A stretch of DNA of 63,795 nucleotides, filler included, from Licmophora abbreviata (lineage: Eukaryota): the NCBI GenBank assembly GCA_900291995.1. It is 15 parts of 15 records of this genome, joined end to end, with 100 filler letters (N's around TTAATTAATTAA, not from the genome) between each part and the next. Parts side by side here need not be neighbours in the genome. Positions count along the whole stretch, not along the records: positions 43,083 to 48,031 come from OLMU01000843.1; 14 more parts are not named here. One strand, written 5' to 3'. A program made the position numbers and the translations under genes. Each line of letters opens with the position of its first letter. The first letter of the stretch is position 1. The notes beneath the pieces were generated by a model. The model was not told where the DNA came from. It did no database searches and saw only the letters and a program-made list of their open reading frames with translations. This document shows, one piece after another, positions 1 to 48,178 of the stretch.

Positions 1-77
1 CGAAGTTTGGATTGTGGATGCCATTAGCCTCATTAAAACGTTAGAGAACTTCCTGCTGCGTCTCTTGCTTTCTGCCC

Positions 78-2375
78 ATGCTGTCGAGGATGCCCCGACA
101 CCACTCCCGACTCTACGTTTCTGCTACTTCGTTGCTGTCTCCTCGATTTGCCACAGCCTTGTTGGCGTTGACATCGTTTTCACCGCAGTCGACGGTCCTC
201 TGCTTCTCCGCTCCCACTACCAACTTTCTATCGACATCACGATCCTTCTTCGCCGACAAACGGATCGGCTTATTTCGGGGTGGGTCCAGTACTCCTCTGA
301 CCAAACGATTCAGTGCCACGACGGACGAAATGACAGAAACAACAACGACGCCCATGACGGCCAGCGGCAAACTTACCGCGCTTCGCGGCAAGCTCGACGA
401 ACTCAATCTCGACGTGTACCTTGTACCGGTCAGTCAATCTGCAAACATATTCTAAGGGGTCAAAACTGGTTTAAAGATTTGCGTACTCACACCTTACTCA
501 TACTCACTACGCTTATTTTAGTCTGACGATCCGCATCTCTCCGAATACACGCCCGACGCCTACAAGCGTCGTGCCTTTCTCACGGCCTTCCAAGGAAGTG
601 CCGGGACGGCGATTGTCACCAAAGATGAAGCCTTCTTGTGGACTGACTCGCGATACTTTAACGAAGCCAACTTGCAGCTGGATGGGGACTTTTGGACACT
701 GATGAAGGCGGGACAGCCAAAAGTGCCGACCATACCAAAGTGGCTAGGCGAACTCGCTGTCAAGTACTACAAGACACACAACAAGCCGCTGCAAGTCGGC
801 ATGGATCCATTTGTGCATGCTGCGTCATTTGCCAAGGATGTCAAAGACGCCTTTGTCTCTGAAGCGGAAGCGGAAGGCATTGAAGATTCAATCATCGTGG
901 GAGAGCTGAACACGGGAAACGAGAATCTAATTGACGGCATTTGGGGTAGTGAGCGCCCTCCCATTCCGACGTCTCCATTTCGTGTGCACCCCATGGAGTA
1001 TGCTGGCATGTCAGTGAGTCAAAAGGTGGGAGAGATCCGCAAGGAGATGGAAGCGAAAAAGGCAACGCTGGGTGTCTTTTGTACGCTGGACGATGTAGCG
1101 TATCTGCTCAATCTTCGAGCCATGGGTGACGTCGAAACGTGTCCGGTGGGTATTGCGTATGCGACAGTGTCAAAGGAAAGCATCACTTTGTATTGCGACA
1201 GTGCCAAGGTTCAGTCTTCTGAGGTGCAAGAACACTTATCCGAAGTGACCATCAAGCCGTACGACGACATTGTTTCGGATATTGAGGCGCACTGCCATGA
1301 CTCTACAACCAACAAGGTGTGGCTCGACAAGTCGCGTGCCAACTATGCGTTGAGTGCCGTCATTCCGGAAAAGAGTTTAGTGGACGCGCAGAATGCCGTG
1401 ACGCCCATGAAGGCATGCAAGAACCAAGCCGAGTTGGAAGGCATGCGCAGAGCGCACATTGTGGATGGTGCCGCAATGGCCGAGTTCATGAGCTGGCTCG
1501 GGAATGAGATTGTTGTAGAGGGTCGCAGCGTAAGCGAGGTTGAAGTCGATCTCAAGCTCACTGGGTATCGTGCCAAGCAGCCGGGGTTCCTCGAAGTCAG
1601 TTTCCCGACGATTGCCGGAGTGGGAAGTAATGGGGCTATTATTCACTATCGTGCCAAGGAAGACGATCTGATGCAGTACCTCGATACATCGAAACCTATC
1701 CTCATTGACAGCGGTGGACAGTACGAGTACGGAACTACGGACGTGACGCGAACATGGCACCTTGGAGAAGCAACGTCGGAATTCAAGGACTACTACACGC
1801 GCGTCTTGAAAGGGAACATTGGTGTCGACACGATGGTGTTTCCCGAAAACACGCCAGGATTCGTTGTAGATGTATTTGCTCGAAAGTCGCTATGGGAGGG
1901 CGGCAAGGATTATGGTCACGGTACGGGGCATGGAGTTGGAGCCGCGCTGAACGTCCACGAGGGACCGCATTCGATTAGTCCACGATGGGCAAACAAAGAA
2001 GTTCTTAAGAAAGGTATGATTGTGAGCAACGAGCCTGGCTATTACGAGGACGGTAACTTCGGGATACGTATCGAGAATCTTCTGGAGATTAGCTACGTCA
2101 AACCAGAACACAACGTCGAAAAGAAAGACGACGAAGCAGAAGCCGAGTCGGCAAAATCTTCTGACAAAAAGTTCCTGAAGTTCGACAAGCTGACGATGAT
2201 TCCAATTCAGAAGAATCTAATCAACATGGACTTGATGACTAGCGCTGAACTCGACTGGCTCGACGAGTATCACACCGAGGTACTCGCTAAAGTTTCCCCT
2301 CTCCTCAAGACCGACAGCCCAGCCATGAAATGGCTTCAGAAGTCTTGCGAAAGGATTGATCGAAGAGGACTCTAA
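78..2375 (+). CDS. Xaa-Pro aminopeptidase P (M24B), N-terminal organelle-targeting extension; exons 78-428, 522-2375
   Basis: Spliced DVYLVP|SDDPHLSEY; GT-AG intron 429-521; motifs GAIIHY, LIDSGGQY..GTTDVTRT, YGHGTGHGVG..LNVHEGP, SNEPGYY..G.FGIRIEN. Confidence 0.93.
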
Positions 2376-2443
2376 TATCGAGTTAGTCCTTCTGATTGTA
2401 CTGCATCTATTACTATATTTTTACTGCCATCAGCGCATGATGG

Positions 2444-5227
2444 CTAGACTGTCTGGTACATTTCGCTCCAGAGCACGGCCGCCTTTGCAGGTCTGCGTCG
2501 CTCGTCGTTCACAATGTCTTCCAGAATGTCTTCATGCTTGTCCAAGAACATGAAACAACCGTCACAACGAGACGCCCCGAGGAGGTCGTCCCTATCCACT
2601 CCGAATGCTGACTGTCGCGAAGCACTTGACGACAGAGCGAACGCTCCTGAAAGCATATTTATTCTATATCCCAGTGCAGCGAGCTGCGCTAGACGCATAC
2701 CATTATAGCATTGGGTACCACCAAACTCCTCCACCTCGCGAGCAAGCTCCACTGTTCTCATCCCACGTCGCGGGCCAAGACTATCAACCATCATTACCGG
2801 TGAGATATCCAATGAAAATAGTTCAAAGTGTCCTTCGGACGTAAGTAGGCGTTCAAACGAGACTTGCATGTCATCGCATTCCATCGTCAACTCGCGGAGA
2901 CCGGCATCGTCGTCAAACATTAGATGGCCATTAATCTCGGCAAAAGTCAGTTTCCACCACAGCTCGTACAATGTCACGAAGATAGCGTTGGAGCTCTCTT
3001 CAGGATCCTCACAATCGCCGCCCTTCTCAAAGTCGTCCGGCTGATGTATTGGAGGTTCTTCCTTTAACTTGATATCCACGAGACTCTTGAGAGGGAAGTC
3101 TGTGTTCAATTCCGGACCGTGCTTGACTGAGAACTGTGGCACCACAAAAACGTTACCAGTCGTCCCAGTGTACACTGCCGACTTGCGAAGCGCAAACATG
3201 GACGCCTCACTAGACAGTATCATTCCTCTCTCGATCTCCAAGCCAGTGACAACCCATCGCGTTGGAGCAGCGTCATACGCCATGTTGACTAGCGCCTTTC
3301 GACTCACGAGATTATCATCCTCTCCCATTATCAACGCGACGAGACAAACGTCAAGTTCCACTGGGTCCAAGCGGCTGCGAATCCTCGACGCTGCCTCAGG
3401 GAGCCCTCCGGCAACGTGAATGACTAATACGCACGGTTGACCCTGCCACGCACGGATGTTGGCCATGGCGATTTCCAATACACGGTCGAGCGCGGCATGA
3501 CTTGCTGCCTGTTGTAGTGTTATCTGCAGGGTCAAGGATAGAGTCACTTCGTGTTTCGCGTCGACCTGATTCCAAACGGGAGCTCCGTGCAGAACTTCTA
3601 CTGTTCGCCGGTCTTGCCACGACACGCTCTTTTCGCATTGTGGGGCCGGAGGCCGAGGAGGCACTTTGCGCGGCCCTGACCGAAGACAATACCGGTGGCT
3701 AGGTAGCTGCGATCTGTCAACACCGGCTTTCCATCGGGAAATGTACTCACCGAGCGGAGTCGCGAGAGATGGTCCTCGCCACTCGTGTCCTTGATGCGGC
3801 AGTAGCGGGATGGCGCCTTCCTTGGCAATTACCCATCCAAGTGCGTCGGTAGATCGATGCACCGAGGCGAGCTGGCCAGAACGATAATATCGCTTCCATT
3901 CCTGGAAGTGAAAGAAAGGCGCCGATCTCGTTTTCCCTGGAAGCTCAGTGTTCTCGAATCTTTGCTTGTAGAGCGTCCCATCAATCCAAAACAAGGTGTC
4001 GCTTTCTTTCACTCCCTTCGGCATGCAAATCGTTTCTTGGTACTTTTCCTGAACCCAATACATGCAGTTTGACGAGGCGTTCGTTTCATCTCGTTTCACG
4101 ACTTCCCTCGAACCAAGCTCGTGCTGTAACGGCCGCCGCTCGCGCGACCCATACATGTTGTCGCGCTGCTCAAACCACGTGGGCGACAGGTGTAGGAGTG
4201 ACCTCCCATCGACATGACTACCGGCCTTGTAAATGACAGATCGATCTTTGTTCGAGCCGATTCCCAAGTAAAGTCCATGAGTCGCTGCCGTATCGTTGTC
4301 ACTGATATCATTGAAGGCCTTGACAGCATACTTGATCCGCACATCCGTCTGCTGCAGTACAACCTGCGAATAGCATCCCTCTGCTGACTCGACATGCAAC
4401 TTCTTCTTCCCTTCCAGTACCTTGGCAAAGCGGACGTCCATTTCCGAAAGATATGTGCAATTACGCCATAACTGATTTATACGGGGGGTATTCCTGTGAA
4501 TTGTGAACTGCCCTCGTAGATAGATGCGATGTTGATCACCGTATCCATAGGTGACAATGTCGAATTCTACAAGTTCCTCCGGCGTAATCCACCGAGGTAA
4601 GTCGCCGAAGACAATGTCCAGATCCGAGTAACCCCAATGGGAGTAATCTTGCAGAATATCGTCAAAGATATGCCCCAAGGCTGGTTTGAACTCGACCAGT
4701 ACATATGGATAGTAGTGAATGTGTTTCGAGACGATGTTGGCAAGGCGCGCTAGCGACCCAACTTGGAGCTCGTCGGATGGCCGTGTGTCAACGACCCTCA
4801 TTAGTCTTTCCACAAAAGCCTCAGTCGATCCCAGACTAATCATCTTTACATTGGGAGGAACATAATCGTGATAATGATCGAGAACACCATTATGAACGAG
4901 CAAAAAGTCCACCAAACTGGCCGAGCCTGCCGCTGCGGTACAAAACAGATTCATATAGGATGGGATGGACTCTGCTGTTTCTCCCACGAAGGGAATCACA
5001 ATTGCAATCCGATACTGCTTCTTTCCACGAAACGATGAAGGACTTATACGATGGGAAGCAAGAAAGGATGACTTGGAAGATGCTTGTAGGACCGCCGATG
5101 ACGACTCGGGCGATGATGTTGTGCTTGTCCAGGGAAGTAAGACCAGCGAGACAAGCAACAGAGACGAAAATCCCAATGCCGCTGCAATAACGGCCCGAAT
5201 ACTTCGTATTCTTCTTCTTCGTCTCAT
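2444..5227 (-). CDS. Type II membrane glycosyltransferase-like protein: DUF6625-like N-half plus GT49 (LARGE/B4GAT1)-like C-half
   Basis: Intronless ~927-codon ORF; poly-Arg + TM anchor; IAIVIPFVG..PSY, WGYSDLDIVFGDL; C-half VTLSLTLQ..WQGQP..KALVNMA..TRWVV..VFVVPQF. Confidence 0.7.
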   Translation of the reverse strand: MRRRRRIRSIRAVIAAALGFSSLLLVSLVLLPWTSTTSSPESSSAVLQASSKSSFLASHRISPSSFRGKKQYRIAIVIPFVGETAESIPSYMNLFCTAAAGSASLVDFLLVHNGVLDHYHDYVPPNVKMISLGSTEAFVERLMRVVDTRPSDELQVGSLARLANIVSKHIHYYPYVLVEFKPALGHIFDDILQDYSHWGYSDLDIVFGDLPRWITPEELVEFDIVTYGYGDQHRIYLRGQFTIHRNTPRINQLWRNCTYLSEMDVRFAKVLEGKKKLHVESAEGCYSQVVLQQTDVRIKYAVKAFNDISDNDTAATHGLYLGIGSNKDRSVIYKAGSHVDGRSLLHLSPTWFEQRDNMYGSRERRPLQHELGSREVVKRDETNASSNCMYWVQEKYQETICMPKGVKESDTLFWIDGTLYKQRFENTELPGKTRSAPFFHFQEWKRYYRSGQLASVHRSTDALGWVIAKEGAIPLLPHQGHEWRGPSLATPLGEYISRWKAGVDRSQLPSHRYCLRSGPRKVPPRPPAPQCEKSVSWQDRRTVEVLHGAPVWNQVDAKHEVTLSLTLQITLQQAASHAALDRVLEIAMANIRAWQGQPCVLVIHVAGGLPEAASRIRSRLDPVELDVCLVALIMGEDDNLVSRKALVNMAYDAAPTRWVVTGLEIERGMILSSEASMFALRKSAVYTGTTGNVFVVPQFSVKHGPELNTDFPLKSLVDIKLKEEPPIHQPDDFEKGGDCEDPEESSNAIFVTLYELWWKLTFAEINGHLMFDDDAGLRELTMECDDMQVSFERLLTSEGHFELFSLDISPVMMVDSLGPRRGMRTVELAREVEEFGGTQCYNGMRLAQLAALGYRINMLSGAFALSSSASRQSAFGVDRDDLLGASRCDGCFMFLDKHEDILEDIVNDERRRPAKAAVLWSEMYQTV

Positions 5228-5554
5228 CGTCAAGCAGACCAATAACGCAGCACCGATTTAGCCACGATAGAGGGCGGCAATGGCAGGATCAAAGAGCCGC
5301 TACAAACACCGTGGTGTGGTGATGCGGTGTGTCGTCTCATGAGATTTCAGATTTTGACAAGAAAATCAACCAAATTTGACGTACGCCTGGCAGACTCTGT
5401 CGGCGCCAAGTTTTTGGGGCCCGTAGGATCACTACCATGGTCTCTGTAGGTTTGCAATTTGGAAGGCGAACAACGAAGACGATCATCGAGATTCGAAATT
5501 CTCCTTTTCCGTCATGTTGAATGAGTATATGATTACACTTCATCGCAGCGTGCC

Positions 5555-6400
5555 ATGCATCTCTTGTTACTGCTGCCTCTCTTTGTTCTCTTCTTGTCTG
5601 CTTCATCCATCATGGCCATGAATATCGTCATTACCGGTGCAAATCGCGGTCTGGGCCTCGAAATGGTCAAGCAGCTTCATGCTCGGCCGACGGCGTCCAA
5701 GATCTACGCTCTTTGCCGCAAGACTACTGACCAGTTGTCGTCGGTGGCCGCTGTCGAGAGTTCAACGAACGAGTCGTCAATTGTTATTGTGGAAGGCATC
5801 GACGTCAGTCAAGACGAATGTGTTCCAAAATTGAAGTCGACTTTCCAGACGGAAGATAGGGACAACATCGTTCCAATCGATCTATTGATTCACAACGCTG
5901 GTGCCTACGGACCTCCCGATGATTTCGAGACTCCCGCGGCCATGTTCGCCTCCCAGAATCTTGAGACCATCTCCATGGATTGTATGCGCTATGCCTTGGA
6001 GCTCAACACCCTCGGCCCACTTCGTGTCACACAAGGACTCCTACCCAATTTGCGGGCTGCCAAGTCTGCCAAAATCATCGTCATCTCGTCTCTCATGGGG
6101 AGTATGACGGACAATACATCGGGATCGTCCTACGGATACCGCACTGCCAAGGCGGCAGTCAATATGATTGGCAAGTCGATGGCGGAGGATCTGAAACAGG
6201 AACAGATTGCTGTCGGTATCGTACATCCGGGCGCGGTCTTTACAGGATTTGGAGGAAACGAAGAGCCTCTTCCGTATCAACGTCCTATCGAACCGTCCGT
6301 TGCTGGAGTATTGGAAGCGATTGATTCTGTGAATGTGGATAACACGGGGTCTTTTTTGCATGGAAACTATGGTGACGGAGTCAAGCCGCTTCCATGGTAG
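5555..6400 (+). CDS. Short-chain dehydrogenase/reductase (CsgA/C-factor-like); start at 5555 (signal peptide) or 5612
   Basis: ITGANRGLG, IDLLIHNAG, ISSLMGS, YRTAK (YxxxK), VHPGAV.T. Confidence 0.9.
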   Translation: MHLLLLLPLFVLFLSASSIMAMNIVITGANRGLGLEMVKQLHARPTASKIYALCRKTTDQLSSVAAVESSTNESSIVIVEGIDVSQDECVPKLKSTFQTEDRDNIVPIDLLIHNAGAYGPPDDFETPAAMFASQNLETISMDCMRYALELNTLGPLRVTQGLLPNLRAAKSAKIIVISSLMGSMTDNTSGSSYGYRTAKAAVNMIGKSMAEDLKQEQIAVGIVHPGAVFTGFGGNEEPLPYQRPIEPSVAGVLEAIDSVNVDNTGSFLHGNYGDGVKPLPW

Positions 6401-42727: not shown

Positions 42728-43472
42728 GAGGATAATGATTCTTGCTTTTCCACGCTTTTCTTCAGGAATAGACAAGTCCACGTGGTGATGCAAGTCTTTT
42801 TGGTCTCGCACGGATGTATTGCTTCTGTCTCTCTTCGAGTGTGTAGCAGCTTTGTGTCCGCATCACTCGTTTCGACCTTCGAAAGAAAACGAATACACAC
42901 TCGCGCGGCCTTTTCGCATCCAGTATGTCAGCTCCGGACGAAGGACTAACCTTCCCGCAATGTTGGGCCCTTGCATCGGCACNNNNNNNNNNNNNNNNNN
43001 NNNNNNNNNNNNNNNNNNNNNNNNNNTTAATTAATTAANNNNNNNNNNNNNNNNNNNNNNNNNNNNNNNNNNNNNNNNNNNNGGCTTTGTGTTCTGGTCA
43101 ATACATCGTGGCTGCTGGGTGGCGCCACTCAAGAGAGAGTGGGCATGCTGTACATTCAACATGGGACAAGAACGCAAAGAAGTATCATCTCAGCGTCCAT
43201 CTCATAACACGGATTACACTATTGTGTTTCCAACGAAAGATTCGTCTCACAAAAGATTCAGTCCGGCGCATCTCGTCACATCTCACTACTTGTGTTGAGA
43301 TATTGCGAATGAAGATTCATACGGGTAAAGATGCGGCTGAGTCTACCCCACTACTTCGAAACTGAATCGAATCTGCATCGAATCTCGACTGGAAAAGATT
43401 TGGATATGGCACTCCAGAGATCTTTTGGTGAGCCCATTTCAAATTTGCGCGCCAATGTTCGAAAAGAAAACG

Positions 43473-45103
43473 ATGAAGGTCTCGCTGTTACTTCTTCTGA
43501 CTAGTCTCACCTCTGCCCCGGCAGCGGCGACGAAGCGTCTTGTCGACGTAGGAAACAATGGCGATTTCAGTGTCCCCGTAAGTACAATGAAGTTCCAACT
43601 CGACACGGTTTTTCGTATGCTATGTTGTTGCCTCACTTTCTTTCTATCGGTATCCTGTTCTTTTAGTACCCTCTCGCTGCCTGTGAGGGCGATTGTGATA
43701 ATGATTCCGATTGCGCTGGATCTTACCTCTGCTTCAGGGACAACGACTTCGCGACTGTCCCGGGTTGCGCCGGGCGTCGCGCCGAGCCGACAGGCCCGAA
43801 TGGCAACATGAAGGATTATTGCTACGACCCAGATTATAGCAAAGATAAGTCTGATGGTGGTGGAAAGTCTACCAAGTTCGTGACTCTCGGAACCCGTCCC
43901 TACTTCCTCGTCGCGTCCATGGACGACTCTGCTCTCAAGTCCATGCTCGGTACGTCGGCAAATCCCCTCCATTGTTGTTCACTGCTCGCAGTCTGCTGAA
44001 CGTGCTTCGCTCTTTGTCCTTCTGTAGAGGAGTGTGCCGCAGAGACAAGTCAGTTTCTCCTTTCTGACTTTTCTATTGGACATCGTGGAGCGTGCATGCA
44101 GTACCCCGAGCACACCTTTCGTTCGTACGAGGCTGCTTCTATGATGGGAGCGGGCATTATTGAATGCGATGTGACCTTCACCAAGGACCGCGAGCTCATC
44201 TGCCGCCATGCACAGTGTGACCTTCACACCACTACGGATGTTGTGCTCCGTCCTGAAATGAACGCCAAGTGTACGACGCCCTGGGCCCCGGGTGTTGCCC
44301 CCAGGTGCTGCGCGTCTGATTTCACCTTGGAAGAAATCAAGGGCATGTGCGCCAAGATGGACTCGGCTGGGCCCAATGATGTTGATGCCGAGACGTACGT
44401 TTATGGGGGCACCGCTGACTGGCGTACTGACCTCTATCAGTTCGAGTGTCCGCAAGTTCCGACTCACAAGGAGAGTATCGAGCTGATCAAATCGAACGGT
44501 GGAAAGTTCACCCCAGAACTCAAGTCTCCTGACGTGGAGATGCCTTTCGAGGGTGATTACACCCAAGAGATGTATGCTCAACAGATGGTCGATGAGTATG
44601 TCGATGCGGGCATTCCCCCCGAGGACGTTTGGGTGCAGTCGTTCAACGAAGACGACGTCTACTACTGGGTAAAGAATGCCCCCGAGTTTGGAGTGCAGGC
44701 AGTTGCACTCGACGGCGTCTACGATCGCACGCAAGCCGAAGTTGACGAGTTTCTTGATCGCCTCGTTGCAGGAGGTGCTCAGATTGTGGCGCCACCCATG
44801 TGGCGTCTCGTTGACCCCGATTCTTCCAGCCCCTATAAGATGAAGGAGTCTGGCTACTCCATCTCCGCTCGCAACAAAGGCCTGGACGTCATCACCTGGA
44901 CGCTAGAGCGCACGGGCCCTGGTCTTCAGGGCTGGTACTGGCAGACTCTCAATGACGGAGGCATTGACCTGGTCGATGGCGACAAGTATAACTTGCTTTA
45001 TGTCCTTGCTGAGGAGGTCGGTGTCCTCGGGGTCTTTTCTGATTGGCCCGCCACGACGACCTTCTTTGCCAACTGCATGGACATTGCTGTCCGTAAGAAG
45101 TAA
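43473..45103 (+). CDS. Secreted glycerophosphodiester phosphodiesterase with an N-terminal frustulin (acidic Cys-rich) domain; exons 43473-43577, 43667-43949, 44028-45103
   Basis: Signal MKVSLLLLLTSLTSAPAAA; CEGDCDNDSDC..CF..VPGC..DYC; IGHRGA.MQYPEHT, IECDV.FTKD..LICRH, ELK, WTLER, GVFSDW. Confidence 0.9.
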
Positions 45104-45497
45104 TGTCTCAGTGCCATCAATGTGGCACAATATCCAAGGTAATACATAGTACGGTAGTAGCGCAGATTGGTCTATAAGAGGTTGGTGTGCTAGCTATTAG
45201 GTCTTACTATTACAGTAGCCACCGTATACCGTAGGCATTCGCGCTTGAGTTGAACATGCCGGTATTGTGTTGGGACGAGCCAATTGTCTTCTGGAAACGG
45301 GCGAAGGGCGGACCCTTTCGAATTGAGAATGATTGGCTTCGCGCGCCGTCGCGCACGATCCCATTTTGCCTTCATCAGCCCTCTGTTTTTCGGATTTGGC
45401 GGATCAACCCATGGGATTTCGTTCCGGTCATCACTGTACGCGTTGAATTGTTTATATTTTTTATTTTGACTGGATCGATCCTTGCTAGACAGCTGTA

Positions 45498-48031
45498 ATG
45501 TGGCGCCATGTTATTCAACATCCAAGGCGGCTGCATCACTTCTCGTCCATCCGCCGACAAGCTGCGTCTTCGCCAATTTCTGCCTCGCTCTGCTCACCCC
45601 ATCCTGATGCCAGCGGCAGCAATTCCTTGTCGACGATTGCACAGTTTAGCAACTCTGTACCGGACCCATCCACGGATATGGCGTCTGCATCGTCAGCAGC
45701 TGTGTCGTTGGCATGTTCTTCCTCTCCGTCGCCCCAGCTGTACGAGTTAAACCCCACCATTGGTCGTGTCGTGGCACGCAATTTTCTCCACGCACTTCAC
45801 GTGGTGACGGACAAGGACGATTACGCGACGGAATACACTGGCCCGTGGGCACAGACGATGGACAAAGGAGCAGATACAGGGCTCGTGAAAGAAATTGTGC
45901 TGCAGAAACAGGAGGATCTCGCTACACCGCATGTGGTAGTCTGCGAGCGGCCGCTTGGTGTTTCAAGCGAACCGCTACAGTCAGAGGAAAGTCTGCACCA
46001 TTCTCAGGAGAAGGTTGCTGAAGGGGGAGTCAATGTGTTAACGATGAAAGGAGCCATGGATATAGAAGAAACTGAGAATGCATCCTCCGGCACGACCTCG
46101 CAGCCTGAGAGAGCAACGCGGCCGCTGCAAGATATGGAGGGGCGAGCGAGTGTTGTAGGAACAACGGCCAAAAAAGACCATGCCGCCACAGCGAAGACGA
46201 GGGAGCCCCCAGTGAACGTTTTCAGAAAAGGGCACGTAGCTTTAGCAGCGCACACCATCGCCTCAAAAGATCAGAAGGGGCGATCTCAGACAACTCTGGA
46301 ACTCAGGATGACTCGCGCCATGCGAGACTCCAGCCATTTTCTTCTCACAGATCTATTTTACATGTCGAAAAAGGAAAATACCAAAATTGACTTGGAAATT
46401 CTACGGGACGTCTTCTTCGTGTTGCTTCCTGTGAACCCATTGAACGCCAACGACGTGCTGCGACGATATCGTCAGCTACTTCCTGATACAGACAACGATG
46501 AAGCTACACTACTCGAGATGTATCGTGCCTTGAGTGGCGCACTTGGATACACCGATCTCAGGCGGAACAAGTTTGATCGGCTCGTTCATGTTCTTGATAG
46601 TGTCAAGCGTGATCTTAATCGCCTTGGCACCAGCTACCAGCGTAGCTGTTATCCCAAATTGCTGGTGAGTGTGGCGCGACACAATGCTGCTTCTCTTCGC
46701 CGTGAAGCGACGAACCTATACCGATACATGATGCACAACAAGTATGATCTAGAACCGGAAATTCTGGAAGAAGTTATCGCCACAATCGACTTTACTGGTC
46801 GGCAACACTTGCCCTTTGCCGATTTCTTGTCGAAGCTGGTCAAGAAAGGTACGTGAGACGGGAACGTTATCTACGGAGGGCACAATGCTGTCATCGCTCA
46901 CCCTGTCGCACTCATCACCCCCAGGTTGCCGACCCGCTCCCGATATTGCGATTCCGGTCTTGGTTAACCTTTATCCCTTTGACAACTACGTAGATACTCG
47001 GCAGGCACTACAAGCTATCGTCGACTTGCAAGCGTCGCTTGATGCCAAAGATAGAGCGGGGGACTACGCCGTGGACATTGGCACACTGGAACTTATTGCG
47101 GCTTCCGCAGCGCGGCGCGGAAACTATGAGCTGAATTTGCTCCTATGGGACTTGATGGATATGCTGGGATACGCACCCACGGAGGCAATCTACGAGAGTA
47201 CTATCCAGGGATTTTCTATGACGTATCGACAAGATCATAATGTTCTGTCTGTACTTGGGGAGATGGAATCGAAGGGATTTGTTCCCTCTCGGGCCCTTAT
47301 CACAAGTGTTGCGCGGTCGTTGCGGTAAGTTCGTCTGATGCACCTAGTGCCGGAACTGGACTGTTTGCACTCGTAATCTCGCGGCTCATAACTCGACAAC
47401 TTTGCCAAACCGCCTAGCTTCTCGACCGGGCGAGTAGACAATGCGTATCACTTGCTAACAAATGGAAAGCTCGAAGGGTCCAGAGTTACGGTAGCCTCTT
47501 TGAATATCATGCTTTGTTCATGTGCTGGCATTGCCGACCTTGATCGAGTATTCGCGACGCTGGATGATTTTCAGTCATATGGATTGGAACCCGACGTCGA
47601 TAGTTACTCGTTTGTGCTGGAAGCGCTGACGCGAAGCGTCAATCCAGATACTGAAAAGAATGAGAGAAAACGTCTTGCGGACGCGCTCGCCAAACGAGAT
47701 GCCTTCGAATCGATTATGGGCATTATGGACGAGAAAGGGCTGGAGCTATGTCCTCATTGTATTGAGCAGTATGTAGTATTTCTGCTATTTCTTGGGGAGC
47801 GGGAGGCAGCGGTCGAGTTCCTCGTGGAGCGGTTGGATAATGGTACGATAGCGCGCAACAAGACTATTCTCATTTTGGCTACAGCATGTGGCGATGCAGA
47901 GGATTTCGATATGGCCGTCCATCTTGCATCGAGAGCACGGGAACCCCTGGACTTCTTACAGCGTCGTATCGAAAAGTGGAAACAGGGAAGTGGGCGCGGG
48001 GCAGATCGAGCCATTGACGTGGCAGACCCGG
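45498..48031 (+). CDS. PPR-like helical-repeat protein, probably mitochondrial, 3' end in gap; exons 45498-46848, 46925-47324, 47418->48031
   Basis: Arg/Ser-rich presequence; ~35-aa units LWDLMDMLGYAPTEAIYESTI, EMESKGFVPS, DFQSYGLEPDVDSYSFVL; GT-AG introns keep frame. Confidence 0.75.
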
Positions 48032-48178
48032 NNNNNNNNNNNNNNNNNNNNNNNNNNNNNNNNNNNNNNNNNNNNTTAATTAATTAANNNNNNNNNNNNN
48101 NNNNNNNNNNNNNNNNNNNNNNNNNNNNNNNTAACTTCGCAACTAGGCAACTATTGTACTTCTACTCGTGCCTGCTAA

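What the first reader, a model, noticed from the sequence alone, without database searches (positions are those of the whole stretch)
43473..45103. Frustulin cell-wall domain fused to a glycerophosphodiester phosphodiesterase
Seen: splicing gives signal peptide - YPLAACEGDCDNDSDCAGSYLCFRDNDFATVPGCAG...DYCYDP (43667-43831, absent from the ORF track) - complete GDPD domain. Established: CEGDCD..DC..CF..VPGC..DYC is the acidic cysteine-rich domain of diatom frustulins, Ca-binding glycoproteins coating the frustule; GDPDs release glycerol-3-phosphate from deacylated phospholipids. Inference: a frustule-displayed ectoenzyme that scavenges organic phosphodiesters, using the frustulin module as a wall anchor. 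This is the best candidate for an undescribed system here.
Basis: partly seen in the sequence, partly recalled or inferred. Interest (0 to 1): 0.78.

Follow-up and report, generated by a model that had tools for sequence, protein, structure and literature searches.

The report
Diatom phosphodiesterase carrying a frustulin wall module
A diatom gene joins one copy of the calcium-binding, cysteine-rich module of the cell-wall proteins called frustulins to an intact secreted enzyme that splits phosphodiesters, and its promoter looks phosphate-starvation controlled, so the cell may pin a phosphorus-scavenging enzyme to its own shell.

Summary
Window 43473-45103 (+) is a three-exon gene of 487 codons. 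It encodes a signal peptide, one acidic cysteine-rich (ACR) module and a complete GDPD enzyme.

- **Fusion:** the ACR and the conserved first strand of the enzyme lie in one exon, so the fusion does not depend on splicing.
- **ACR identity:** a profile built only from named frustulins scores the module 51.8 bits; the best of 1000 shuffles scores 7.6.
- **Enzyme:** Pfam GDPD, E 2e-20. All 83 columns that are at least 97% conserved in 120 homologues are kept.
- **Rarity:** no ACR in 0 of 120 closest homologues or 0 of 62 metagenome loci. One of 150 cluster representatives is a fragment with a partial ACR-like start at its C-terminus.
- **Promiscuity:** the module also occurs on PhoX-like phosphatases, a metallophosphoesterase, a carbonic anhydrase and lectins of other diatoms. 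It is not frustulin-specific, and this protein is not a frustulin.
- **New here:** five GAATCT cores lie 93-235 bp upstream. GAATCT is the reported PtPSR phosphate-starvation element, known to me only through a secondary citation. Similar clusters precede several diatom orthologues.

Wall anchoring by the ACR stays an inference, and no RNA data were available. I rate it a new variant of a known kind, of moderate interest.

The parts
43238..43385 (.). Cluster of five GAATCT cores: AGATTC at 43238, 43254 and 43313, and GAATCT at 43369 and 43380. They lie 93-235 bp upstream of the ATG and are a candidate phosphate-starvation (PSR-type Myb) promoter element.
   Evidence: this is the only place in the 63.8 kb window with 3 or more cores in 160 bp, and 1 of 2000 random placements gives 5 or more. 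The motif meaning comes from PMC13729311, which cites Kumar Sharma 2020; the original paper is not held. Similar clusters lie upstream of orthologues L058/L042, L033 and L052.
43473..43577 (+). Exon 1 (35 codons). It holds the signal peptide (about residues 1-19), then K-R-L, then the first ten residues of the ACR module (VGNNGDFSVP). An in-frame ATG at 43455 would add six residues.
   Evidence: The signal peptide is read by eye (MK, a 12-residue hydrophobic run, AAA before the predicted cut). No predictor was run.
43578..43666 (+). Intron 1, 89 nt, with a GTAAGT donor, a pyrimidine tract and a TAG acceptor.
   Evidence: If retained it shifts the frame and ends the protein at 43811.
43667..43831 (+). 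Main part of the ACR module (residues 36-90). It has six Cys, the CEGDCD and VPGCAG hexapeptides and a DYC ending. The 71-residue stretch from residue 25 has pI 4.05.
   Evidence: profile positions 3-62 of 62 matched. The motifs are as named in PMC4712521.
43832..43876 (+). Short Lys/Gly/Asp linker (residues 91-105).
   Evidence: It sits where the closest homologues carry Lys/Gly-rich linkers.
43877..43949 (+). First conserved strand and helix of the GDPD enzyme (FVTLGTRPYFLVASMDDSALKSML), in the same exon as the ACR.
   Evidence: Homologues, bacterial ones included, align from residue 106-107 onward.
43950..44027 (+). Intron 2, 78 nt, phase 1, GTACGT...TGTAG.
   Evidence: The position is conserved in L047, L053 and L058.
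44028..45103 (+). Exon 3: the rest of the GDPD catalytic domain and the stop codon (45101-45103).
   Evidence: PF03009; 83 of 83 conserved columns are kept, including H18, R19, E27, E45, D47, H60, E163 and K165 in exon 3 numbering. HRG, PEHT and ExD line up with PDB 5t91.

Best explanation
This is a nuclear diatom gene for a secreted glycerophosphodiester phosphodiesterase. Its N-terminus copies the start of a frustulin: signal peptide, a dibasic-Leu site (KRL where Phaeodactylum frustulins 3 and 5 have RRL), then one acidic, six-cysteine ACR module.

Proposed working:
- The gene is switched on under phosphate starvation through a cluster of GAATCT elements.
- The protein enters the secretory pathway.
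- The ACR module holds it in the Ca2+-bridged organic coat of the frustule, where frustulins sit.
- The GDPD domain there cleaves glycerophosphodiesters (deacylated phospholipids and similar dissolved diesters) to glycerol-3-phosphate plus an alcohol. Surface phosphatases and phosphate transporters can then use the product.

Shown: gene structure by homology, ACR homology, an intact GDPD, and motif clustering. Inferred: secretion, induction, enzyme substrate, and above all retention on the wall.

My odds for the parts are: gene model 0.9, ACR homology 0.95, active GDPD 0.85, phosphate control 0.6, wall retention through the ACR 0.4-0.45.
For: - **One-exon fusion:** the ACR and the GDPD N-terminal strand share exon 2.
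- **ACR homology:** the profile from named frustulins scores 51.8 bits against at most 7.6 for 1000 shuffles. The hexapeptides CxGDCD and VPGCxG are as described for frustulin ACR domains (PMC4712521, passages). The module has pI 4.05 and 6 Cys.
- **Frustulin-like start:** named frustulins P0212 and P0280 read signal peptide-...RRL...-VGNNG/VGDNG-ACR, the same order as here.
- **Enzyme intact:** Pfam E 2.1e-20. 83 of 83 conserved columns are kept with no deviation, and nine conserved Cys fit an oxidising, extracellular setting.
- **Precedent for ACR on enzymes:** other diatom proteins are built signal peptide - ACR(n) - enzyme. These are five PhoX-like proteins, one metallophosphoesterase and one carbonic anhydrase.
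- **Precedent for wall display:** frustulin1-GFP is displayed on the cell surface of Fistulifera (PMC4712521, passages). [quoted passage not shown]
- **Phosphate link:** five GAATCT cores lie 93-235 bp upstream, unique in the window, with 1 of 2000 random placements as dense. Similar clusters precede orthologues L058/L042 (6 cores), L033 (5) and L052 (5 upstream plus 1 inside the coding part). A T. pseudonana GDPD with a signal peptide rises from 5 to 5560 tpm without P (PMC3315573). Two P. tricornutum GDPDs are induced (PMC5825098).
Against: - No transcript evidence, so the junctions rest on homology only.
- There is one ACR, whereas the four named frustulins read here carry 2-5. Nothing shows that a single module suffices for binding, or that the ACR rather than other frustulin parts mediates wall association.
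- The module occurs on many unrelated secreted proteins, so it may serve folding, Ca2+ binding or oligomerisation instead.
- P. tricornutum phosphate-scavenging enzymes localised so far are released to the medium or sit in the plasma membrane. None is wall-bound (PMC7283521, passages).
- The GAATCT meaning comes from a secondary citation and from another species. Two diatom orthologue groups lack a cluster: L047-L050 have 2 cores within about 540 bp, and L053 has 1 with only 218 bp available.
- I could not show that the P-induced GDPDs of the papers are orthologues of this gene.
- The gene lies on a 4.9 kb contig, and no reads were available to check the assembly.
Confidence: 0.45

Rival explanations
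1. The protein is secreted but not wall-bound. It is released to the medium or the space under the frustule, and the ACR is a general disulfide-rich, Ca2+-binding stabilising or oligomerising module of diatom exoproteins.
For: The ACR occurs with many partner domains, including lectins, TSP1, DUF7633, carbonic anhydrase and PhoX. There is only one copy here. The known P. tricornutum phosphatases are released or membrane-bound (PMC7283521). Most GDPD orthologues do without any ACR.
Against: The N-terminus mirrors that of wall-resident frustulins. Orthologues carry other candidate wall or matrix-binding devices at the same place: 13 of 47 full N-termini have signal peptide-RxL-Lys-rich linkers, and 9 of 120 have a C-terminal fasciclin. 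That pattern suggests selection for retention.
Confidence: 0.3
2. The enzyme works inside the cell (ER, vacuole or another endomembrane compartment) in phospholipid recycling during phosphate stress, not outside.
For: P-induced diatom GDPDs are discussed as part of lipid remodelling (PMC5825098, passages). A signal peptide alone does not prove export.
Against: The protein has a frustulin-type presequence and an extracellular-type six-Cys module. Nine Cys are conserved in the catalytic domain. I saw no C-terminal retention signal or membrane span in the sequence (read by eye). Some bacterial homologues carry N-termini that look like signal peptides.
Confidence: 0.1
3. The enzyme is wall-tethered but acts on the wall or mucilage itself, trimming phosphodiester-linked polymers rather than scavenging nutrients.
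For: The GDPD fold is also used on polymer substrates. The PDB sequence search returned GP-PDE domains inside large proteins of 832-848 residues (9eul, 9euf). That B. subtilis GlpQ trims teichoic acid is my recollection, from no call.
Against: The promoter motif cluster and the literature on P-induced diatom GDPDs point to phosphorus supply (PMC3315573). No such wall substrate in diatoms came up in my reading.
Confidence: 0.08
4. Gene-model or assembly artefact: the ACR part is a dead exon fragment, or a chimeric join that never appears in the mature protein.
For: There is no RNA evidence (one search listed no run). The contig is short, and the combination is unique among 120 proteins and 62 loci.
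Against: The ACR and the enzyme strand share one open exon, with no stop and no frame change. All six Cys and both hexapeptides are intact at 51.8 bits. The splice sites are canonical and the homology continues across the joint.
Confidence: 0.07

Closest known systems
Frustulins (alpha- and epsilon-frustulins of Cylindrotheca/Navicula; frustulins 3 and 5 of Phaeodactylum tricornutum)
   Same: They share the signal peptide, a dibasic-Leu site and the VGNNG...C(E/Q)GDCD...VPGCxG...D(Y/F)C module. The module is acidic, has six Cys and is about 60 residues long (PMC4712521, PMC4557024).
   Different: This protein has one ACR instead of several. It has no proline-rich, polyglycine or tryptophan-rich domain, and it carries a 380-residue enzyme. 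Its ACR lacks the Q of CFQR and has a loop 5-7 residues longer before DYC.
Secreted, phosphate-stress-induced GDPDs of diatoms (T. pseudonana PID 23858; P. tricornutum Phatr2_32057 and Phatr2_44900)
   Same: They belong to the same enzyme family and are reported with a signal peptide. They give a phosphate-stress context, which here is suggested by the promoter motifs (PMC3315573, PMC5825098).
   Different: No wall module is reported for them. Orthology with this gene was not tested, because their sequences were not in my hits under those names.
Extracellular GlpQI/GlpQII of Pseudomonas and related gammaproteobacterial GDPDs
   Same: They are Pho-regulated secreted GDPDs that release P from glycerophosphocholine outside the cell (PMC5438359, passages). 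Bacterial proteins are 54-57% identical to exon 3, for example P0100 from a Pseudomonadales MAG.
   Different: They are bacterial and have no ACR. Whether my bacterial hits are GlpQI or GlpQII in the sense of that paper was not tested.
ACR-PhoX-like proteins of other diatoms (for example P0124 of Amphora coffeaeformis, with six ACR then PhoX)
   Same: They are built the same way, signal peptide - ACR - phosphorus-releasing enzyme.
   Different: The enzyme is different and there are several ACR copies. The Pfam PhoX matches are partial (27-55 bits). I found no paper describing them.
Engineered diatom surface display (frustulin1-GFP in Fistulifera solaris; silaffin-enzyme fusions in T. pseudonana)
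   Same: A wall-protein part is fused to a cargo protein to hold it on the frustule (PMC4712521 passages; Poulsen 2007 is seen only in the reference list of PMC9650480).
   Different: Those are man-made and use a whole frustulin or silaffin. This would be a natural counterpart with a single module.

Membership tests
GDPD / GP-PDE (Pfam PF03009) | Match to the family profile above the curated cut-off | tested here: met
   E 2.1e-20, 74.3 bits against a cut-off of 23.6. Residues 18-315 of exon 3 cover profile positions 1-237 of 244.
GDPD / GP-PDE (Pfam PF03009) | Catalytic and metal-binding residues (HR..., PE.T, E.D, second His, E..K) present | tested here: met
   83 of 83 columns that are at least 97% conserved in 120 homologues are kept, among them H18, R19, E27, E45, D47, H60, E163 and K165. 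HRG, PEHT and ExD align with PDB 5t91. The assignment of roles to these residues is recalled, not computed.
GDPD / GP-PDE (Pfam PF03009) | Hydrolysis of glycerophosphodiesters to glycerol-3-phosphate | not testable with these tools
   This needs an enzyme assay.
Frustulin ACR domain | Hexapeptide motifs C(E/Q)GDCD and VPGC(S/A)G in a Cys-rich stretch of about 50 residues | tested here: met
   CEGDCD and VPGCAG, with six Cys. The motif definition is from PMC4712521 and the domain size from PMC4557024 (passages).
Frustulin ACR domain | Match to a profile built only from proteins named frustulin | tested here: met
   12 distinct repeats from P0231, P0212, P0230 and P0280. The score is 51.8 bits over profile positions 3-62 of 62. 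The best of 1000 shuffles scores 7.6 bits.
Frustulin ACR domain | Acidic character | tested here: met
   14 D/E against 5 K/R in 71 residues, pI 4.05.
Frustulin ACR domain | Ca2+ binding | not testable with these tools
   Reported for frustulins (PMC4557024). Not measurable here.
Frustulin (whole protein) | At least three of five features: presequence, ACR domains, proline-rich, polyglycine and tryptophan-rich domains (rule used in PMC4712521) | tested here: not met
   the presequence-like start and one ACR are present. There is no proline-rich, polyglycine (only GGG) or Trp-rich domain, so at most two of five are met.
PSR (Myb) phosphate-starvation regulon of diatoms | GAATCT cis elements in the promoter | tested here: met
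   five cores in 148 bp, 93-235 bp upstream. The motif is taken from a secondary citation (PMC13729311). The longer form I used was recalled.
PSR (Myb) phosphate-starvation regulon of diatoms | Induction under phosphate limitation, and binding by the factor | not testable with these tools
   No RNA run was listed. This needs qPCR or RNA-seq with and without P, and a binding assay.
Secreted or wall protein | Cleavable N-terminal signal peptide without a plastid-type cleavage motif | tested here: inconclusive
   Read by eye only: MK, then 12 hydrophobic or small residues, AAA before the cut and T at +1. No predictor is available. The plastid rule (aromatic residue at +1) is recalled.

The most novel reading that the evidence does not exclude
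The ACR module is a portable frustule tag. Diatoms would use their shell as a solid support on which they immobilise a set of nutrient-acquisition ectoenzymes: GDPD here, and PhoX-like phosphatases, a metallophosphoesterase and a carbonic anhydrase elsewhere.

The stretch between signal peptide and catalytic domain of this GDPD clade would then be a swap site. Different lineages have inserted different wall-targeting devices there: ACR, RxL plus Lys-rich silaffin-like linkers, or, at the other end of the protein, fasciclin. Expression would be under PSR-type phosphate control.

That would give the ACR domain, known since 1994 without a clear role, a function as a wall-binding module.
Probability: 0.3. 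Interest if true: 0.7.

Novelty: new variant of a known kind. Interest (0 to 1): 0.5.

Why it matters
Phosphodiesters are an under-counted part of marine dissolved organic phosphorus. Diatom diesterase activity is known to be phosphate-regulated (PMC3315573), but how such enzymes are kept at the cell surface is not known.

A natural ACR-enzyme fusion gives a direct handle. Deleting one small module should move the enzyme from the wall to the medium. The same experiment would test what ACR domains do, which is still open for frustulins.

If it holds, the module is also a small native tag for enzyme display on diatom silica, which so far has been done with whole frustulins or silaffins.

If it does not hold, the gene is simply one more secreted GDPD with an extra Cys-rich domain.

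Tried and rejected
- **RNA evidence:** The look-up of sequencing runs listed no RNA holder for 43300-45300.
- **Own genome:** none is held. Other ACR or GDPD genes of this organism could not be counted, and the window holds no second ACR.
- **Earlier findings:** none for this place. The two found by sequence and by words concern a Vibrio promoter and an Ostreococcus protein and did not bear on this.
- **Pfam on exon 2:** only a sub-threshold WAP match (E 0.1, 13.4 bits against a cut-off of 20.8). Pfam has no ACR family, so I built a profile.
- **Protein atlas:** three unnamed diatom clusters at 0.90-0.93, which gave no names.
- **PDB by sequence for exon 2:** 0 hits at E up to 10.
- **Fold of the ACR:** the AlphaFold model is moderate, 59 residues from a 70-row alignment, pLDDT 75.5, pTM 0.60. 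Foldseek against PDB gave a best E of 3.2. VIA-align against 48,161 chains gave a best Z of 3.2, all small cystine-knot peptides. I saw no credible relative, which does not show that the fold is new.
- **Fusion elsewhere:** 0 of 120 proteins and 0 of 62 loci; the one VPGCAG in L002 is a chance hit on the other strand of a bacterial locus. 1 of 150 representatives, P0408, is a 199-residue fragment whose GDPD end is followed by a partial CEGDCN start (16.6 bits). It is too short to judge.
- **Papers not held:** Kroger 1994 (PMC395402) and Kumar Sharma 2020. The Ca2+ and EDTA details and the exact PSR motif therefore come from secondary sources.
- **Literature for the combination:**
  - 'frustulin' plus 'phosphodiesterase' gave one unrelated work in two versions.
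  - CEGDCD, CQGDCD, VPGCSG and 'frustulin-like' gave only PMC4712521.
  - No supplements were opened.
- **Neighbourhood:** rejected as evidence, because the window is made of contigs joined by spacers.
Full report
**What is there.** The window is not one stretch of genome. It is built from contigs joined by spacers of 44 N, TTAATTAATTAA and 44 N, with 14 such spacers. The finding lies on the piece 43083-48031, so only those 4.9 kb count as context.

On this piece the + strand carries a three-exon gene:
- Exon 1 is 43473-43577.
- Intron 1 is 43578-43666 (89 nt, GTAAGT donor, pyrimidine tract, TAG acceptor).
- Exon 2 is 43667-43949.
- Intron 2 is 43950-44027 (78 nt, GTACGT...TGTAG, phase 1).
- Exon 3 is 44028-45103.

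Joined, the frame is open for 487 codons. An in-frame ATG at 43455 would add six residues and changes nothing else.

**The enzyme.** Exon 3 matches Pfam GDPD (PF03009) at E 2.1e-20, 74.3 bits against a cut-off of 23.6.
- A search of 5.8 billion proteins scored 8000 candidates and listed the best 120. The top hit is 76% identical.
- The hits named by a source are diatoms, apart from one Pseudomonadales MAG: Fragilaria crotonensis, Cylindrotheca fusiformis, Discostella, Cyclotella, Ditylum and Rhizosolenia.
- Bacterial proteins follow at 54-57% identity, for example that MAG (P0100).
- In an alignment with these 120, all 83 columns that are at least 97% conserved are kept in the window protein, with no deviation. 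These include the HR, PEHT, ExD, second His and E..K positions, which line up with solved GlpQ 5t91, and nine cysteines.
- The enzyme therefore looks active and suited to an oxidising compartment.

**The fusion does not depend on splicing.** Homologues, bacterial ones included, begin their conserved part with a strand of the type (V/I)xLGxRP(Y/F)(Y/F)L(V/I), followed by LK..L..CA. In the window this strand (FVTLGTRPYFLVASMDDSALKSML) is the 3' end of exon 2. It lies in the same open frame as the Cys-rich part, with only a 15-residue Lys/Gly/Asp linker between them. tblastn of the spliced protein against six related loci always starts at residue 106-107.

Intron 2 sits at the same codon in diatom loci L047, L053 and L058, and is absent in L052.

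**The Cys-rich part is a frustulin-type ACR module.** PMC4712521 (passages read) defines ACR domains by the hexapeptides CQGDCD and VPGCSG. PMC4557024 (passages) describes them as acidic Cys-rich domains of about 50 residues that bind Ca2+.
- The window has CEGDCD and VPGCAG, six Cys, and a pI of 4.05 over 71 residues.
- A third database search returned proteins that sources name frustulin: alpha-2 frustulin of C. fusiformis (P0231) and frustulins 3 and 5 of P. tricornutum (P0212, P0230, P0280).
- From their 12 distinct repeats I built a profile. It scores the spliced protein 51.8 bits over residues 26-90 (profile positions 3-62 of 62) and exon 2 alone 47.9 bits. The best of 1000 shuffles scores 7.6 bits.
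- The module starts in exon 1. Repeats elsewhere begin VGNNG/VGDNG...FPL..C.GDCD, and alignments run over the exon 1/exon 2 joint without a gap. All 155 of 155 ACR proteins match, and 81 alignments start at or before residue 24.
- That supports the 43577/43667 junction. A stop lies directly before exon 2, so the module cannot be translated without such a splice. Of seven in-frame GT donors only this one is GTAAGT, and all seven keep the frame.
- The start of the protein also mirrors named frustulins, which read signal peptide, RRL, then VGNNG-ACR. Here the site is KRL, which is not a strict RxL.
- By the five-feature rule of PMC4712521 the whole protein is not a frustulin, since it meets at most two of the five features.

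**How common is the combination?**
- None of the 120 closest GDPD homologues has the motifs or matches the ACR profile; the best score is 4.1 bits.
- None of 62 related metagenome loci has it, and the closest locus (L052, up to 80% identity) lacks it too.
- Among the 150 best cluster representatives of 1.84 billion proteins, one does. P0408 is a 199-residue fragment whose GDPD C-terminus is followed by a partial CEGDCN start (16.6 bits). It may be an independent C-terminal fusion but is too short to judge.
- Only the best-ranked hits could be inspected, so rarer cases may exist.

**The module is promiscuous.** Searches with the ACR return diatom proteins in which one to six ACR copies accompany other domains. 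I checked these with Pfam:

| Partner domain | Proteins | Bits |
|---|---|---|
| PhoX-like phosphatase (partial matches) | P0124, P0240, P0242, P0244, P0271 | 27-55 |
| Calcineurin-like phosphoesterase | P0315 | 29.1 |
| Carbonic anhydrase | P0134 | 58.4 |
| TSP1 | P0129 | 63.0 |
| DUF7633 | P0125 | 95.1 |

- Precomputed labels add ricin-type lectins, C-type lectin, LamG and discoidin domains.
- P0124, whose cluster holds an Amphora coffeaeformis record, starts signal peptide - ACR x6 - PhoX, the same plan as here.
- Every hit that carries an organism name is a diatom, but the ranking favours that.

**What orthologues have at the same place.** 47 of the 120 homologues have a complete N-terminus.
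- 13 of them show signal peptide, an RxL site and a Lys-rich linker with 5-13 Lys.
- RxL sites and lysine clusters are known processing and silica-targeting features of silaffins and cingulins (PMC4557024, PMC9650480, passages). Whether they act so here is untested.
- 9 of the 120 carry a C-terminal fasciclin domain (P0038 verified).
- The region around the catalytic core thus varies in ways that suggest matrix binding.

**Promoter.** GAATCT is cited as the cis element bound by PtPSR, the Myb factor of the Phaeodactylum phosphate-starvation response. I know this from PMC13729311, which cites Kumar Sharma 2020. The original is not held, and the longer form I used was recalled.
- Five cores lie at 43238, 43254 and 43313 (minus strand) and at 43369 and 43380 (plus strand), 93-235 bp before the ATG.
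- The window holds 48 cores in 62.6 kb, and this is its only 160-bp stretch with three or more. Random placement reaches five in 1 of 2000 trials.
- Among the 62 loci, 4 have three or more cores within 160 bp upstream, and all four are diatom-type.
- L058 and its near-twin L042 have 6 cores 107-359 bp before the ATG. L033 has 5 at 69-261 bp. L052 has 5 at 318-610 bp.
- The L047-L050 group (2 cores) and L053 (1 core, with only 218 bp available) have no cluster.

**Literature.**
- A T. pseudonana GDPD with a signal peptide rises from 5 to 5560 tpm without phosphate, together with diesterase activity (PMC3315573, passages).
- Two P. tricornutum GDPDs are induced without phosphate (PMC5825098, passages). 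I could not test orthology with this gene.
- Secreted Pseudomonas GlpQI and GlpQII release P from glycerophosphocholine outside the cell (PMC5438359, passages).
- P. tricornutum phosphatases localised so far are released or sit in the plasma membrane (PMC7283521, passages).
- An alkaline phosphatase domain was found in a silica-associated proteome and judged unlikely to be involved in silica formation (bioRxiv 10.1101/2021.09.18.460806, passages).
- No paper in the library joins frustulin with a phosphodiesterase in this sense or mentions the motifs beyond PMC4712521.

**Fold.** An AlphaFold model of the 59-residue module is moderate (pLDDT 75.5) and has no credible solved relative. The best Foldseek E is 3.2, and the best VIA-align Z is 3.2 to small cystine-knot peptides. 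This neither names the fold nor shows that it is new.

**Verdict.** The gene most likely encodes a phosphate-starvation-induced, secreted GDPD that carries one frustulin-type ACR module. That the module tethers the enzyme to the frustule coat is the best reading but remains unproven. The main rival is a freely secreted enzyme with a general Cys-rich stabilising module.

This is a new combination of two known parts. Its value lies in offering a simple test of what ACR domains do and how diatoms hold scavenging enzymes at their surface.

Noticed in passing
whole window; spacers at e.g. 42983-43082 and 48032-48131: The window is a chain of contigs joined by 44 N + TTAATTAATTAA + 44 N, with 14 spacers. 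Genes on either side of a spacer are therefore not shown to be neighbours in the genome.
   Followed up: yes
window 45489-48031 (+): Long open frames at 45489-46856, 46753-47328 and 47392-48031 lie downstream of the GDPD gene. They are probably exons of one gene that runs off the contig. I did not analyse them and saw no link to the finding.
   Followed up: no
P0012, P0032, P0069, P0076, P0079, P0081, P0083, P0084, P0087-P0090, P0099: 13 of 47 GDPD homologues with a complete N-terminus carry a signal peptide, an RxL site and a linker with 5-13 lysines before the enzyme. This layout recalls silaffin and cingulin silica targeting.
   Followed up: partly
P0038, P0040, P0045, P0047, P0048, P0060, P0061, P0066, P0067: 9 of the 120 closest GDPD homologues have a C-terminal fasciclin (FAS1) domain. 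P0038 was verified: GDPD at 32-361 and fasciclin at 393-518.
   Followed up: partly
P0124, P0240, P0242, P0244, P0271, P0315, P0134: ACR modules are fused to PhoX-like phosphatases (five proteins), a calcineurin-like phosphoesterase and a carbonic anhydrase in other diatoms. I found no paper describing these architectures.
   Followed up: partly
P0408: This is a 199-residue fragment in which the end of a related GDPD is followed by a partial CEGDCN...DC start. It may be an independent C-terminal ACR fusion in another organism.
   Followed up: partly
P0325 (763 aa), P0326 (742 aa): These proteins have two tandem copies of this GDPD type in one chain, each with two matched stretches.
   Followed up: no
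P0100, P0106, P0109-P0111, P0114, P0119, P0120; loci L001-L032: Bacterial GDPDs, one of them labelled as from a Pseudomonadales MAG, are 50-57% identical to the diatom enzyme over its whole length. That is close enough to suggest gene transfer between bacteria and diatoms. No tree was built.
   Followed up: no
whole window: The eight-letter form of the PSR-like motif occurs 28 times in the window, against 17.3 expected, and 0 of 100 shuffles reach 28. Four of the 28 lie in the GDPD promoter. The other sites were not examined.
   Followed up: no
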